A DNA stretch of 64,000 nt from Eledone cirrhosa (Eukaryota): positions 161,820,001 to 161,884,000 of the forward strand of contig OZ024743.1 in NCBI GenBank assembly GCA_964016885.1. The letters are read 5' to 3'. The position numbers were made by a program, and so were the translations under genes. Positions 23,984 to 59,620 of the stretch are shown here, one piece after another. Numbering within the stretch: position 1 is the first letter of the stretch; every line of letters starts with the position of its first letter. The notes under the pieces were generated by a model. That model was not told the origin of the DNA. It saw only the letters and a list, made by a program, of their open reading frames with translations, and made no database searches.

Positions 23984-24256
23984 ATATTAATTCAAAATAT
24001 TAATAAATATAGACATTCATGTGATCAAATATATTTTATTATATATATTTCAGAGGTACTGTGCTGTTTCCTCAGTACGTCCTCATCATTGAGGTAGGTC
24101 AGACATCAATTTATTTTATCTGATGAGGACGTACTGAGGAAACAGCACAGTACCTCTGAAATATATATAATAAAATATATTTGATCACATATTTGATCAC
24201 ATAAAATATATTTGATCACATGAATGTCTATATTTATTAATATTTTGAATTAATAT
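23984..24256. repeat. Fold-back insert between TA tracts
   Basis: Arms 23984-24088 and 24121-24256, 32-nt loop, unique ~90-bp tail on the right. Confidence 0.9.
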
Positions 24257-24529
24257 TAACTCCAGAAAACTTCTTTGTTGAGTGCTTCTAATCTATTGTA
24301 AAACTATATTCATTGATTAATCAATGAACCTTGTTTAACTTTTGGTTATATATATATATATATATATATATACACACACACAAAAACGAGACAATCATTT
24401 TATCACCTATAGATCAGGGGAGCACGTCAGATTATATCCTTACCAGAAGGCGTGATAGTGTCTGTTATAAATACTAAATCCCCCCCCCCCCCGTGAAGAA
24501 TGCACCTCCCAACATAGCCTCATAGTTAG

Positions 24530-26946
24530 CGACCTCATAGTCAGGACTAGACGTACTCAACAACAGAGGAGGACTATATGGAAGTTAAAGGACCCTACAG
24601 CCAGTAACAAATTTAAAAGCATATTACTTGATGCTTTTGACAGTAAGGAAGAGCAATATAGAGGAACAGTGGGAATTCTTGAAGGGTTAACCTGCTGAAG
24701 GCAACAGATGAATTCTGTGGCTGGAGCAGACCTATAGGCAGGGAGAGAGTAACTTGGTGGTGGAATAGTAAGGTGGAGGAGACAATCAAGGCCAAAAAGC
24801 AGGCTTGGAAAGTATGGCGGGATGGGGGAAGTAGAGAAGACTATCAAGTGGCCAGGAGGGAAGCTAGGAGACAAGTGTACTTTGCAAGAAGGGAAGCCGA
24901 GGAAAGAAAGTTTAAGCCTGTTCTACAACGCGAGGACCAAAAACGTGAGGTGTTCAGGATTGCAAGACAATGTGTCAAGGAAAACCGTGATATTGTCGGC
25001 GAGAAGTGTGTTCATAACGATGATGGTATACTTGCCATCACTGATGCTGATAAGAAGGTAGCTTGGAAGTGTCACTACGAGAGACTATTAAATGAGGAGA
25101 ATAAATGGGAAAAAGATAGTCTGTCCCAAATTGATCCAATAGAAGGACCAGCGGTGCAAGTTAAAGGTAGTATAATAAGTAAGGCAATCAAAGATATGAA
25201 GACAGGCAAAGCAGCTGGGCCTTCGGAGATTGTTGCTTAGATGTTGAAAGCATCTGGAATGGTGGGACAAACTATGGTCACCCGGATAGTAAACCAAAGA
25301 ATACAGAATAGGGTCATACCAAATGATTGGCGTAGCAGCATCATCATTAACTGCTACAAGGGTAAAGGAGATACCCTAGATAGGGGAAACTATAGAGGCA
25401 TTAAATTGATTGACCAGGTCATGAAGGTCACAGAAAGAGTTATAGCACAATTAATCAGAGAGCAAATTGATCTAGATGAAATGCAGTTTGGGTTTGTGTC
25501 AGGTAAAAGTACCATGGACGCTCTTTTCCTTGTACGACAACTACAGGAGAAGTACCTAGCTAAAAGTATAGCCCTATACTTAGCTTTTGTTGACTTGGAG
25601 AAAGCCTTTGACAGAGTCCCCTGCTCCATTAGCTGGTGGGCTCTTAGAAAACTAGGTGTTGATGAATGGCTTGTGAGAGCTATACAAGCTATGTATAAAG
25701 AAAGTTAACTTGTCTAACACTAAAGTTCCAGTATGTAGAAAGGAAAACAGGGTACAGGTACCCTCTGGAAAATGGCCATGCTCAGTGTGTAGGAAAGAAG
25801 TAGGCAGAAATTCCATTTTCTGTCTCAAATGCAAATTATGGGGACATAAAAGTTGTAGTGGGATCACAGGTAAACTATCTAAGAACGTAGACTTTATATG
25901 TGGCCAATGCTCAGGTGCAATAAGTAGCAAGTGCCCACAGGATACTAGCTCCTTCTATTGCCCAGATGGTTCTATAGAAAAAGTGGGCACTTTCCGTTAC
26001 CTGGGTGACAAAATCAGCAGTGGTGGAGGGTGCTCTGAAAGTACAGTAGCCAGAGTCAGAACGGGATGGAAAAGTTCAGAGAGCTTATACCACTATTGAC
26101 CACTAAAGGTTTCTCTCTAAAAATGAAAGGCAGATTGTATGATGCTCGTATACGAACAGCAATGTTACATGGCAGTGAGACATGGGCCTTGTGTACAGAG
26201 GATCTGCGCAGACTGGAGAAGAACAAAGCATCCATGCTCTGTTGGATGTGTAATAGTAATATACGCGAACGGCAAAGCATAAATGAACTAAGTGAGAAAT
26301 TAGGAATAAGAGGGATCAGATGCTGTTTACTCGAAAGAAGACTACGTTGGTATGGTCACGTGATGCACATGAAAGACGACAGTTGTATAAAAAAGTGCAG
26401 AGCGATCAAAACTGATGGAACTTACGGAGTAGGTAGACCCAGAAAAACCTGGGACGATTTGATAAATTCCCACCTCACACATTTACACCTCTCTAAGACA
26501 ATGTAACTGGACCGAGAGCTTTGGCGCTACGCAGTAATACTTGCCTATGTACAAAGCGAAACCTACAATCAGTAGGCACCTCTTAACCAAATATATGCCC
26601 CATCCAACTACCCCTACTCACTCCCACCAACACCACCCTTTCTCTGTAAAGTTATGTTGGTACCACAACATCCAGTCCAAAATAAATAAGGTTCTGTAGG
26701 TGTCACGACAAAAAAACACAGTCCACGCTGTAATGTGGCCGTGTAGGTAACACGGTAAAAACCTCCCAGTCCACACTGTAAACGTAGTTGGTGTTAGGAA
26801 GGGCATCCAGCCGTAGAAAACCTGTCAGACAGCCCTATTACGAGCGAGACATGGTCACCCGACCAATCTTGCCTCAAGTGGGACAATTCCCGTCTAAACC
26901 CATGCTAGTGTGGAAGATAGACGTTAAACGTTGATGATGATGATGA
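24530..26946 (+). mobile_element. RTE-clade LINE, 5'-truncated and internally deleted, with PHD-like finger
   Basis: ORFs give KGKGDTLDRGNYRGIKL, MQFGF, LAFVDLEKAFDRVP, FRYLG, MLHGSETW, RLRWYGHV and GRPRKTW. Ends in (GAT)n. The QG and YADD motifs are missing (jump near 25703). Confidence 0.92.
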
Positions 26947-26949
26947 TAC

Positions 26950-56558: not shown

Positions 56559-57437
56559 TCATCATTGCATTTTACATCCCTGCTTGCAAGGGTGGGACAG
56601 GAACTGATTCTGGCTTGATTTCTACAGCTGGATGCCCTTCCTAACACCAATTTCATTTATAGTGAGTGCTGGGTGTTTTTTTGCCATGGCACCTCCACGA
56701 CCACTTTGCAGTGGAATAATATAGACCCCCAGTCCCTATCATCTCATTTCTACAGCTGAGTAAACTGGAGCAATGTCAAATAAAGTGTCTTGCTCAAGGA
56801 AACAACACATCACCCGTCTGAGAATTGAACTGACAACCTTTTGATTGCAAGGCCAATGCTCTAACCACTAAGCCATGTGCCTCCATCATATATATATACA
56901 TACATATATATACATATATATATACACATATATACATATATGGATATACATATATATATATATGGATATACATATATATATATATATATATATATGGATA
57001 TACATATATATATATGCATATGCACATATATATATATGCATATACACATATATATATATATGCATATACATATATATATCTGCATATACATATATATATA
57101 TATATATATGGAGGCACATGGCCTTGCAATCGAAAGATTGTGAGTTCAATTCTCAGACCAGGTGATGTGTTGTTTCCTTGAGCAAGACACTTTATTTGAC
57201 ATTGCTCCAGTTTACTCAGCTGTAGAAATGAGATGATAGGGACTGAGGTCCATATTATTCCACTGCAAAGTGGTCGTGGAGGTCCCACAGTAAAAAAGCA
57301 CCCAGCACTCACTGTAAATGAGGTTGGTGTTAGGAAGGGCATCCAGCTGTAGAAATCAAGCCAGAATCAGTTCCCGTCTCACCCTTGCAAGCAGGGAAAA
57401 AGTGGACGTAAAATGAAATGATGAAAATGATGAAATG
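56559..57437. mobile_element. Head-to-head pair of SINE B copies (56559-56884 minus, 57109-57437 plus)
   Basis: Reverse-complement copies separated by a TA-rich tract. Confidence 0.85.
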
Positions 57438-57807
57438 ATATACATATATATATATATATGCATATACATATATATATATATATGCATATACATATATATA
57501 TATATATATATATGCATATACATATATCATCATCATCATCATCATCAACGTTTAACGTCCGTGTTCCACGCTTGCATGGGTTTGGACGGGGGTAGTCCCA
57601 CTTGAGGCAAGAGTGATTGTCTTGCTCGCATAGGACTGTCTGGCAGGTTTTCTACAGTTGGATGCCCTTCCTAACACCAACCACATTTATACATATATAT
57701 ATATGCATATATATATATATATATATATATGCATATACATATATATATATATACATATATATATATGAATATATATATATATATATATACATATATATAT
57801 ATATACA

Positions 57808-59194
57808 TATATAGAGATTACAATAATCAAAGTTCAATTTAAATCATTTATTTGCTTACAATTGTTTCCTCCAAACCGAGGTTTGGATTCTTCGGAGCAA
57901 CTATTTAGTGATCTATAACATACTTGACCTCCTTTTCAACACAAGAGACATATAAAAACATATGCATATATTGACCCACAGTGGGATGACATCCATCAAA
58001 ATGATAAAGCATGGCAATTTACATATAAAGGTTAAAAGATAAAAATAAAAATAAAAATAAAAATAAAAATAAAAATAAAAATAAAAATAAAAATAAAAAT
58101 GAAACATTGGCAGTTTATGCAGATAAAGCAAGAGGAAAGTTTAGAGTAGTCAGTGTATGAAACAATCTCACGTGTAGCATGCACGCGTGTCTTATTTATA
58201 CAGGATTAGAGTGCGGCAGATTGTTACTTGCAGGGTCAGGCAGTTGAAGCAGGCAATCGATATTATTATGTGGGCTGAATTGTTAAATCATTTTTTCGCA
58301 TACACCTGTATGATATACAATCCCGAATGTAGAGAAACACCAAAATATCAAAAATATCAAACATATTATAAAACATATTATAGCGTAGGCAAAACAATAA
58401 CTTGGTTATATGCTGAACCATCGTGGATTATATGATAGACCCGTGGTCTCTATATATTGCGTCTCATGGATTATGTGAGTGGTGGTGTGCGCGGGGGCAG
58501 TGGTACTGTTTTGCCTACGCTATAATATGTTTGATATTTTGGTGTTTCTCTACATTCGGGATTGTATATCATACAGGTGTATGCGAAAAAATGATTTAAC
58601 AATTCAGTCCACATAATAATATCGATTGCCTGCTTCAACTGCCTGACCCTGCAAGTAACAATCTGCCGCACTCTAATCCTGTATAAATAAGACACGCGTG
58701 CATGCTACACGTGAGATTGTTTCATACACTGACTACTATAAACTTTCCTCTTGCTTTATCTGCATAAACTGCCAATGTTTCAATTTTATTTTTATTTTTA
58801 TTTTTATTTTTATTTTTATTTTTATTTTTATTTTTATTTTTATTTTTATTTTTATTTTTATTTTTATTTTTATTTTTATTTTTATTTTTATTTTTATTTT
58901 TATTTTTATTTTTATTTTTATTTTTATTTTTATTTTTATTTTTATTTTTATTTTTATTTTTATCCTTTAACCTTTATATGTAAATTGCCATGCTATATCA
59001 TTTTGATGGATGTCATCCCACTGTGGGTCAATATATGCATATGTTTTTATATGTCTCTTGTGTTGAAAAGGAGGTCAAGTATGTTATAGATCACTAAATA
59101 GCTGCTCCGAAGAATCCAAACCTCGGTTTGGAGGAAACAATTGTAAGCAAATAAATGATTTAAACTGAACTTTGATTATTGTAATCTCTATATA
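57808..59194. repeat. 1.4-kb inverted repeat with internal (AAAAAT)n and a hammerhead-like motif in each arm
   Basis: Arms 57808-58396 and 58507-59194, 110-nt loop, ~165-bp tail on the right. Confidence 0.95.
59103..59149 (+). ncRNA. Minimal type I hammerhead-ribozyme-like motif; mirror copy at 57852-57900 (-)
   Basis: TGCT-CCGAAGA-A-TCCAAAC(CTCG)GTTTGGA-G-GAAAC-AATT-GTA-AGCA: stem I, core variant, stem II, palindromic stem III and GUA site. Confidence 0.65.
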
Positions 59195-59620
59195 ACTGCT
59201 CTGTAAAACAACCTATGTTATTACATTGAGCTATTTATCTTACTGGTAATAAGATAGTAATTAATGACTATCTTTCACTATTTAGGGTTTGTATAAAAAA
59301 TATATAACCATAAAAGGTTTTATTACATACATAACCATAAATAGTATCCTTAATACTATATACATATATATATATATACATATATATATATACATATATA
59401 TATATACATATATATATACATATATATATACACATATATATATACACAAATATATACACACATATATATAACCATATATATATACACATATATATATATA
59501 TATATATATACACATATATATATTCATATATATATACACATATATATATACATATATATATATATATATATACACATATATATATATACATATGTATATA
59601 TATATGTATATATATATGTA

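What the first reader, a model, noticed from the sequence alone, without database searches (positions are those of the whole stretch)
23984..59360. Recurrent system: fold-back, hammerhead-bearing inserts in (TA)n microsatellites
Seen: at least eight inserts with unrelated sequences (near 24.0, 35.1, 39.4, 39.8, 40.5, 41.1, 53.4 and 57.8 kb) share one architecture. Each lies in or abuts (TA)n and has two inverted arms around a 0-300 nt centre. Usually one arm runs into the TA tract while the other carries an extra unique tail. Where a hammerhead-like motif is visible (CTGANGA...GAAAC-palindrome-GTH), it reads outward from the centre. Established: Penelope-like elements carry minimal hammerheads with palindromic stem III in their pLTRs, often insert with an inverted pLTR and short tail, and some clades prefer microsatellites. 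Inference: these are ORF-less insertions of many different PLE or retrozyme-like families with both 3' ends joined to the target. No PLE RT or GIY-YIG ORF is present in the window.
Basis: partly seen in the sequence, partly recalled or inferred. Interest (0 to 1): 0.85.

Follow-up and report, generated by a model that had tools for sequence, protein, structure and literature searches.

The report
Penelope retroelement stumps, copied twice
These hairpin-shaped inserts in TA repeats are real, and most are the short ends of a known kind of jumping gene (Penelope-like elements); their fixed end points and an extra G suggest that each was likely made by two separate copying events on the element's own RNA.

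Summary
All eight fold-backs exist, and the shape (one arm ending in (TA)n, the other carrying a tail into (TA)n) is common in this genome: 20 in an evenly spaced 200-kb sample. Each insert belongs to a multi-copy family. Six of eight families run upstream, in sense, into an RT + C-terminal GIY-YIG ORF: four with Hydra-clade motifs, two Neptune-like. One is an ORF-less ~575-nt partial-tandem element; one has no partner found. Type I hammerheads point outward: 5 in the window against 0.02 in shuffles; two families lack them. The architecture is published for Penelope-like elements. What the copies add: the tail-less arm ends at one fixed point per family (28 of 28, 20 of 24), short copies stop at an initiator-like site, often behind an untemplated G, and either arm can be the longer one or carry the G. 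This favours two cDNAs primed from both cut (TA)n ends on a capped, uncleaved sense RNA (inferred). The scan has noted this before, in this genome and others. Known kind; moderate interest as a record of mechanism.

The parts
23984..24346 (+). F24.0 fold-back, Hydra-type family: tail-less arm 23984-24088 (- strand, 198 to 93 nt from the 3' end), tail arm 24089-24346 (+)
   Evidence: sense ORF link in L130/L322
24112..24177 (+). Type I hammerhead of F24.0, 8-bp stem I, palindromic stem III
   Evidence: 21 of 25 family loci pass the descriptor
35035..35178 (-). F35.1 fold-back of an ORF-less ~575-nt partial-tandem element: tail arm 35035-35101 (-), tail-less arm about 35102-35178 (+, ends 37 nt from the 3' end); no hammerhead
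39286..39621 (-). F39.4 fold-back, old family (70-89% identity): tail arm 39286-39530 (-), tail-less arm 39527-39621 (+); each arm has only the 3' half of the family hammerhead; no coding partner found
   Evidence: junction bridged by a short contig
39822..40145 (+). F39.8 fold-back, Neptune-like family: tail-less arm 39822-39951 (-, ends 56 nt from the 3' end), tail arm 39947-40145 (+); hammerhead cut off at its 5' half
   Evidence: raw reads continue into the missing core
40372..40792 (-). F40.5 fold-back, young Hydra-type family: tail arm 40372-40627 (-), tail-less arm 40622-40792 (+, ends 85 nt from the 3' end); perfect 330-nt palindrome centred on the inferred transcription start
40684..40754 (+). 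Type I hammerhead of F40.5 in the tail-less arm (mirror copy at 40565 downwards on - strand)
   Evidence: 49 of 55 family loci pass
40808..41499 (-). F41.1 fold-back, Hydra-type family: tail arm 40808-41160 (-), interrupted by a 2 x 94-nt unrelated repeat at 40846-41033; tail-less arm 41158-41499 (+, ends 134 nt from the 3' end) with a 46-nt x 4 tandem at its 5' end; hammerhead at 41374-41448 with changed triplet
53410..53855 (-). F53.4 fold-back, very young Neptune-like family (98-100%): tail arm 53410-53648 (-, starts 239 nt from the 3' end behind an untemplated G), tail-less arm 53650-53855 (+, ends 34 nt from the 3' end); no hammerhead
57808..59356 (+). F57.8 fold-back, Hydra-type family: tail-less arm 57808-58399 (-, ends 162 nt from the 3' end), tail arm 58397-59356 (+); hammerhead variants (CCGAAGA core) at 59103-59149 (+) and 57900-57852 (-)

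Best explanation
The inserts are short insertions of several endonuclease-bearing Penelope-like element (PLE) families, and each fold-back was likely made by two separate reverse-transcription events, one from each cut end of a (TA)n tract. Shown: multi-copy families; sense linkage of six to RT + GIY-YIG ORFs; full-length copies built as inverted arm, direct pLTR, ORF, 3' end; two fixed arm ends per family; short copies stopping at one site; an untemplated G there in three families. Inferred: (1) a promoter in the pLTR makes a capped, sense RNA that the hammerhead has not cut; (2) the GIY-YIG domain cuts both strands of (TA)n; (3) the two DNA 3' ends prime at two fixed internal RNA sites 34-162 nt apart, helped by a few UA bases and, in Hydra-type families, perhaps by a small hairpin just downstream; the tail is the stretch between the two sites; (4) when priming is on the 5' pLTR of the RNA, the cDNAs run off its start after 240-340 nt, adding a C opposite the cap; (5) the two cDNA 3' ends join head to head through microhomology or short template jumps.
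For: Linkage: (GIY-YIG C-terminus in sense at a constant distance: about 1.0 kb in 9 of the 25 first-search F40.5 loci plus extended loci; 8 of 25 F57.8; 9 of 25 F39.8; F53.4 L111; F24.0 L322; F41.1 L321). Full-length anatomy: L109 with an 821-aa open frame, L111 with RVT_1 and GIY-YIG hits. Fixed tail-less end: 28 of 28 F53.4 fold-backs at 34; 20 of 24 F40.5 at 85 (rest 80-88); 13 of 18 F24.0 at 93; 12 of 14 F41.1 at 134; 5 of 9 F39.8 at 56, unchanged when arms are over 2 kb. Both outer ends in (TA)n: 25 of 28 and 20 of 24. G before +1 where the genome has C: F53.4 tail arms 18 of 19, 10 of 11 after dropping 8 whose partner arm could supply it (p 1.8e-6); F24.0 5 of 5; F40.5 tail-less arms 6 of 9 (p 0.002). 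Tail-less arm reaches further 5' than the tail arm in 12 of 24 F40.5 and 11 of 13 F41.1 fold-backs; 3 F41.1 copies have no overlap at all. TA-like bases at the tail-less end, combined p 3.7e-5 over 8 families. In vitro, a PLE cuts and extends both strands, starts at two internal sites that bound the tail, and uses uncut RNA (PMC11167929).
Against: No RNA data: no RNA holder was listed, so start site and cap are inferred from DNA. F41.1 shows no G excess (3 of 11 arms that truly stop at +1, my reading). In F53.4 the tail-less arms at +1 carry C in 6 of 8, and 25 of 28 fold-backs fit simple snap-back equally well. The first F53.4 query itself held the G, which slightly favours G-bearing hits; F24.0 and the second F40.5 query did not. 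An untemplated base can also come from terminal transferase activity without a cap (own knowledge). TA overlap is under p 0.05 in only 4 of 8 families, and PMC11167929 reports start sites without homology to the target. Only 40 candidates are scored per search, so samples are small and skewed to young copies. Two of eight families have no coding partner.
Confidence: 0.7

Rival explanations
1. Same PLE origin, but one cDNA only: it runs from the outer site to the RNA start, folds back on itself and copies itself as far as the inner site, where the endonuclease or a TA microhomology joins it to the other flank.
For: F53.4: G on the tail arm, tail-less arm equal or shorter in 25 of 28, short duplications at the junction. 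Perfect palindromes centred on natural 6-nt palindromes. Craig 2021 ascribes the tail to endonuclease resolution.
Against: Cannot give a tail-less arm longer than a TA-flanked tail arm (12 of 24 F40.5, 11 of 13 F41.1), non-overlapping pairs, solo tail-less copies, or G on the tail-less arm, unless later deletions are invoked each time.
Confidence: 0.17
2. Self-priming on an antisense transcript makes the head-to-head palindromes, as proposed for rotifer Penelope.
For: Proposed in PMC3846280 from palindromes at inverted junctions (passages); such palindromes occur here.
Against: Junctions pile up at a sense initiator-like site with an extra G on the sense strand in three families, which marks the 5' end of a sense template.
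Confidence: 0.05
3. The fold-backs are non-autonomous units (retrozyme- or MITE-like) that move as ready-made hairpins.
For: Many F53.4 and F40.5 copies have nearly the same length; F35.1 is an ORF-less tandem unit.
Against: Junction sequences differ copy by copy even at 99% arm identity; arm lengths range from 36 nt to 3 kb with the same outer ends; six families are colinear with RT-EN ORFs; arms are not terminal.
Confidence: 0.05
4. Assembly or library chimeras, or later hairpin repair at (TA)n cruciforms.
For: Two inserts are near-perfect palindromes; these two were not checked in reads.
Against: Family-specific fixed ends and the G cannot come from random chimerism; older inserts have arms diverged to 72-79%; a short contig with no mismatch bridges the 39.4 kb junction, and 1,933 raw reads of another study run from the F39.8 arm end into TA.
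Confidence: 0.03

Closest known systems
EN+ PLE insertion unit: inverted 5'-truncated copy, pLTR and one-sided tail (Craig et al. 2021, PMC8557442, Fig. 2 legend; Arkhipova et al. 2013, PMC3846280)
   Same: Head-to-head arms, one-sided tail, partial tandems, palindromes at junctions, initiator-like site in the pLTR.
   Different: Tails here are 34-162 nt rather than 30-40; most copies are pLTR-only; target duplications cannot be read in (TA)n.
Hydra clade of C-terminal EN+ PLEs, including Hydra-1_Obim of Octopus bimaculoides (PMC8557442 section 11 and File S1)
   Same: CxCx5C linker, DKT, CxxC and CxH around the catalytic E and N, hammerheads, (TA)n targets (F24.0, F40.5, F41.1, F57.8).
   Different: The F40.5 unit is about 3.7 kb, not under 3 kb; RWK reads RWT; pLTRs are clear here, whereas Hydra-1_Obim is listed with 'no pLTR'. 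Identity to Hydra-1_Obim not tested.
Poseidon element of Anolis (PAc) in vitro (Frangieh et al. 2024, PMC11167929)
   Same: Both strands cut and extended; two internal start sites bound the tail; hammerhead cleavage not needed.
   Different: PAc starts lie in an AC-rich stem-loop without homology to the target; here they sit at short TA-like patches and the target is (TA)n. That paper does not explain inversions.
[quoted passage not shown]
   Same: Type I, long helix II, palindromic helix III, extra base after position 9 in F39.8.
   Different: F57.8 has a CCGAAGA core; F40.5 has A-U at 10.1-11.1; F53.4 and F35.1 have none. Activity untested.
Non-LTR retrozymes (bioRxiv 10.64898/2026.07.22.740005)
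   Same: F35.1 is non-coding and partially tandem.
   Different: F35.1 has no hammerhead; the other families are not tandem non-coding units.
Twin priming of LINE-1 (recalled, no call)
   Same: Second target strand primes internally and gives an inversion.
   Different: In L1 the two parts do not overlap; here they usually do, and the inner site is fixed.

Membership tests
EN+ Penelope-like element | RT plus C-terminal GIY-YIG ORF upstream, in sense, of the insert sequence | tested here: met
   6 of 8 families; not found for F35.1 and F39.4
EN+ Penelope-like element | pLTR in partial tandem with inverted copy and one-sided tail | tested here: met
   L109 and L110 (F40.5), L111/L267 (F53.4), L323 (F57.8)
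EN+ Penelope-like element | Type I hammerhead in the pLTR, sense | tested here: met
   6 of 8 families: 21/25, 9/60, 12/25, 49/55, 21/25, 15/25 loci; 0/25 F35.1 and 0/55 F53.4
EN+ Penelope-like element | Target-site duplication | not testable with these tools
   Both flanks are (TA)n; no empty allele at hand
Hydra clade | CxCx5C linker; CxxC before E and CxH after N | tested here: met
   CxCx5C and CxxC..E in all four families; CxH in F40.5, F24.0 and F57.8 (L116), changed in the one F41.1 copy read
Hydra clade | DKT for DKG, RWK motif | tested here: inconclusive
   DKT in F40.5 and F57.8; RWT in F40.5; region not reached in F24.0 and F41.1
Hydra clade | (TA)n insertion preference | tested here: met
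   20 of 24 F40.5 fold-backs with TA at both ends
Hydra clade | Length generally under 3 kb | tested here: not met
   F40.5 about 3.7 kb; a descriptive, not strict, feature in the paper
Hydra clade | Placement in the RT tree | not tested
   No named reference proteins were loaded
Neptune clade | DKG, GxKF, CX2-5CxxC linker, C-terminal EN | tested here: met
   F53.4: all in L111; F39.8: linker and EN in L324. The linker is shared with Nematis, so the label is 'Neptune-like' and partly from recall
Neptune clade | Placement in the RT tree | not tested
   Not run
Naiad clade | N-terminal GIY-YIG | tested here: not met
   EN is C-terminal in all six linked families
Non-LTR retrozyme | Non-coding tandem units, each with a type I hammerhead | tested here: not met
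   F35.1 tandem but 0 of 25 loci with hammerhead; the others are ORF-linked or untraced
MITE or fold-back DNA transposon | Terminal inverted repeats around a constant interior | tested here: not met
   One arm is subterminal by a fixed tail; interiors differ per copy

The most novel reading that the evidence does not exclude
Hydra and Neptune-like PLEs integrate by obligate double priming: both strands of a cut (TA)n copy a capped, uncut sense RNA from two start sites, set in Hydra by a twice-present RCTC...GAGY hairpin 3-9 nt downstream. This one rule would yield the tail, the inverted pLTR, the solo pLTR and the non-overlapping inversion, and has left on the order of 300,000 hairpin-forming stumps (about one per 10 kb) in this genome.
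Probability: 0.5. Interest if true: 0.7.

Novelty: new member of a known kind. Interest (0 to 1): 0.42.

Why it matters
How PLEs form tandem and inverted structures and why they prefer microsatellites is named as open in Craig 2021, and sense versus antisense template was left open in Arkhipova 2013. Young families with hundreds of near-identical copies give exact start sites, an intact 821-aa frame and a defined target, so the two-cDNA model can be tested directly. Practically, these stumps are dense, look like MITEs or microRNA hairpins (Rfam gave sub-threshold miRNA hits on them) and will be mis-annotated.

Tried and rejected
Rfam: no hammerhead family among the 150 of 222 matches shown; a descriptor was needed. 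The loose motif CTGANGA alone is uninformative (45 hits). Pfam missed the Hydra and one Neptune-like ORF (0 families for L109, L112). A PLE-specific Pfam accession that I recalled is not in the library. I first read the Hydra ORFs as Nematis; corrected after reading section 11. A Hydra ORF next to F35.1 (L152/L154, one place) is separated by a TA tract and an inverted arm and was rejected as a link. ORFs beside F39.4 copies were antisense or over 1.7 kb away behind microsatellites; shared upstream sequence ended after about 150 nt. A hammerhead relic in F35.1 was considered and dropped. Cleavage site as the 5' stop was rejected: arms run through intact ribozymes and stop 60-150 nt upstream. 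Sequencing runs: no RNA holder listed, no evidence either way; reads were laid on 39200-40200 only, and no listed piece spans it whole. The hairpin was not found after the inner site in F41.1, F35.1, F39.8 or F53.4. Literature: a search for penelope + cap + 'non-templated G' + retrotransposon gave 0 papers, 'extra G' + 'capped RNA' gave 1 unrelated paper, and none of 15 listed papers held both pLTR and 'twin priming'; subscription papers are not covered.
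Full report
Setting. The window is G000:C4:161,820,001-161,884,000 of a 3.0-Gb unnamed animal genome. That it is octopus-like is my recall from its repeats, echoed by earlier AI notes; no call names it. Families are named by window position; arm coordinates are nucleotides upstream of the tail end.

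Observation. Self-comparison and reading of the sequence show all eight inserts. A de novo scan lists 14 non-simple inverted repeats in the window; 6 of 14 have one arm at (TA)n and a 40-140-nt tail to the next (TA)n; the 41.1 and 57.8 kb inserts were split by nested repeats and recovered by mapping. In 20 evenly placed 10-kb stretches from 9 large contigs, 20 of 46 inverted repeats had this shape, 8 more had one or both ends at TA, 12 had none and 6 had TA inside; a random end is that near TA 2.1% of the time. The window is therefore typical, and the genome would hold on the order of 300,000 such units (rough extrapolation, by shape only).

Hammerheads. A descriptor requiring core and three stems gave 5 hits in the window against 0.017 in 60 shuffles and 17 in the 200-kb sample against 0.17 in 30 shuffles, 12 with palindromic stem III. 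Stems I differ between families yet pair. Six families carry the motif in sense; F35.1 and F53.4 do not. At 39.4 and 39.8 kb the window copies are cut inside the motif; other copies and 10,665 raw reads supply the missing half.

Families and partners. Each insert hit many places (candidates 159-2,737; 40 scored each). F40.5 copies run 5' into a GIY-YIG C-terminus about 1.0 kb upstream of the 189-nt end piece, F57.8 1.7-2.3 kb, F39.8 0.3 kb, F53.4 1.0 kb; extended loci linked F24.0 and F41.1 (F41.1 rests on one locus). L109 holds an inverted arm, a direct pLTR, then an 821-aa open frame with DKT, RWT, CxCx5C, CxxC and CxH, the Hydra diagnostics of PMC8557442 section 11; F24.0, F41.1 and F57.8 share the linker. 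L111 (F53.4) has DKG, GxKF, CX4CxxC and Pfam RVT_1 and GIY-YIG hits. F35.1 is a ~575-nt unit without ORF in partial tandem in 3 of 6 loci examined. F39.4 is old and has no partner in 60 loci and 9 extensions. No PLE ORF is in the window.

Ends. The tail-less arm stops at one point per family: 34 (28 of 28), 85 (20 of 24), 93 (13 of 18), 134 (12 of 14), 56 (5 of 9); 131-144 in 8 of 10 F39.4; 162 in the window copy of F57.8, whose mapping mostly failed on its hexamer tract. The tail end is also internal: in full-length copies it continues into the 5' UTR. So both joints are internal sites of a longer RNA, as shown in vitro for PAc. The inner sites end in 2-7 alternating TA bases, more than a simulated null overall (p 3.7e-5) but under 0.05 in only 4 of 8. 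Following a lead from earlier notes, a paired RCTC...GAGY motif lies 3-5 nt after the inner site in 3 of 4 Hydra-type families and 8-9 nt after the outer site in both that could be read; background 0.5%; 4 of 9 F39.4 copies have it. It is absent in F41.1 and the Neptune-like families, and its folding energy is modest (-3 to -11 kcal/mol).

Centres. Short copies stop at one site per family: 239 (F53.4), 256 (F40.5), 263 (F24.0), 336 (F41.1), each an A after YC, like an initiator (the initiator label is recalled). The genome has C before it; copies often have G: 18 of 19 F53.4 tail arms, 10 of 11 after dropping 8 ambiguous near-perfect palindromes; 5 of 5 F24.0 arms, three of them tail-less; 6 of 9 F40.5 tail-less arms. 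Three solo copies read (TA)n, G, +1 with no partner arm to supply the G. Against: F41.1 shows 3 of 11; F53.4 tail-less arms show C in 6 of 8; the first F53.4 query contained the G. The tail-less arm is the longer in 12 of 24 F40.5, 11 of 13 F41.1, 3 of 28 F53.4 fold-backs.

Mechanism. A tail-less arm that reaches further 5' than its partner, or bears the run-off G, cannot be copied from the partner; the partner holds the tail and cannot be copied from it. Both must be RNA-templated, unless later deletions are invoked. Hence two cDNAs, primed by the two (TA)n 3' ends at two fixed sites and joined at their far ends. F53.4 alone would also fit snap-back. Intact ribozymes inside the arms and stops upstream of them indicate an uncut template. 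These steps are inferred from DNA; no RNA was seen.

Artefact check. A 112-nt contig of run X1 (perhaps the assembly's own sample) matches 39462-39573 without difference at depth 12, bridging the F39.4 junction; raw reads of another study show 1,933 F39.8 arm ends running into TA. The two perfect palindromes were not checked in reads.

Known and new. Read: PMC8557442 (part 2 of 10, section 11, passages, supplement hits); PMC11167929 (parts 1-2 of 4, abstract and main text); PMC3846280, PMC4209133, PMC13282606 (passages); bioRxiv 10.64898/2026.07.22.740005 (part 1 of 5). The insertion shape, hammerheads, (TA)n bias, internal starts and an octopus Hydra family are all in print. I found no paper with the G signature or with double priming as the cause of PLE inversions; supplements of PMC11167929 were not read and may bear on this. 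The scan's own notes report the same pattern many times in this genome and the G in other genomes; they are not independent support. Verdict: new members of a known kind, of moderate interest as a testable record of mechanism.

Noticed in passing
window 40245-40336 (+): tRNA-like gene (Rfam 56.8 bits, anticodon UUU) with a 20-nt insertion in the anticodon loop where introns lie, between two TA tracts; an intron in animal tRNA-Lys would be unusual (recall).
   Followed up: no
window 41511-41625: A ninth, tiny fold-back (12-nt arms plus tail) flanked by (TG)n/(CA)n rather than (TA)n; larger copies of this family, with the 3' half of a hammerhead and an ACTC...GAGT hairpin in the tail, sit in TA tracts in L002, L012, L062 and L140.
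   Followed up: partly
window 53909-56245: Two 3' ends of an RTE-like LINE with (CAT)n tails, 960-nt arms at 90% identity, head to head with a TA tract between them; related SINE-like ends flank TA tracts tail to tail at 56078-56502 and 56560-57423.
   Followed up: no
L165, L166, L155 (F35.1): ORF-less ~575-nt partial-tandem element with PLE-type ends and no hammerhead; a candidate non-autonomous PLE with over 1,600 candidate places.
   Followed up: partly
L111:4476-5840 (-): The F53.4 element has a 455-aa frame upstream of, and overlapping in another frame, its 784-aa RT-EN frame; no Pfam hit. Second ORF, intron or frameshift of this copy is undecided.
   Followed up: no
window 41161-41343: The first 46 nt from the inferred start site of F41.1 are repeated four times in tandem at the junction, as if the RT re-engaged the RNA 5' end repeatedly.
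   Followed up: no
window 21336-22065 and 14838-17074: A perfect (GT)365 tract and a 22-nt minisatellite of about 100 copies.
   Followed up: no
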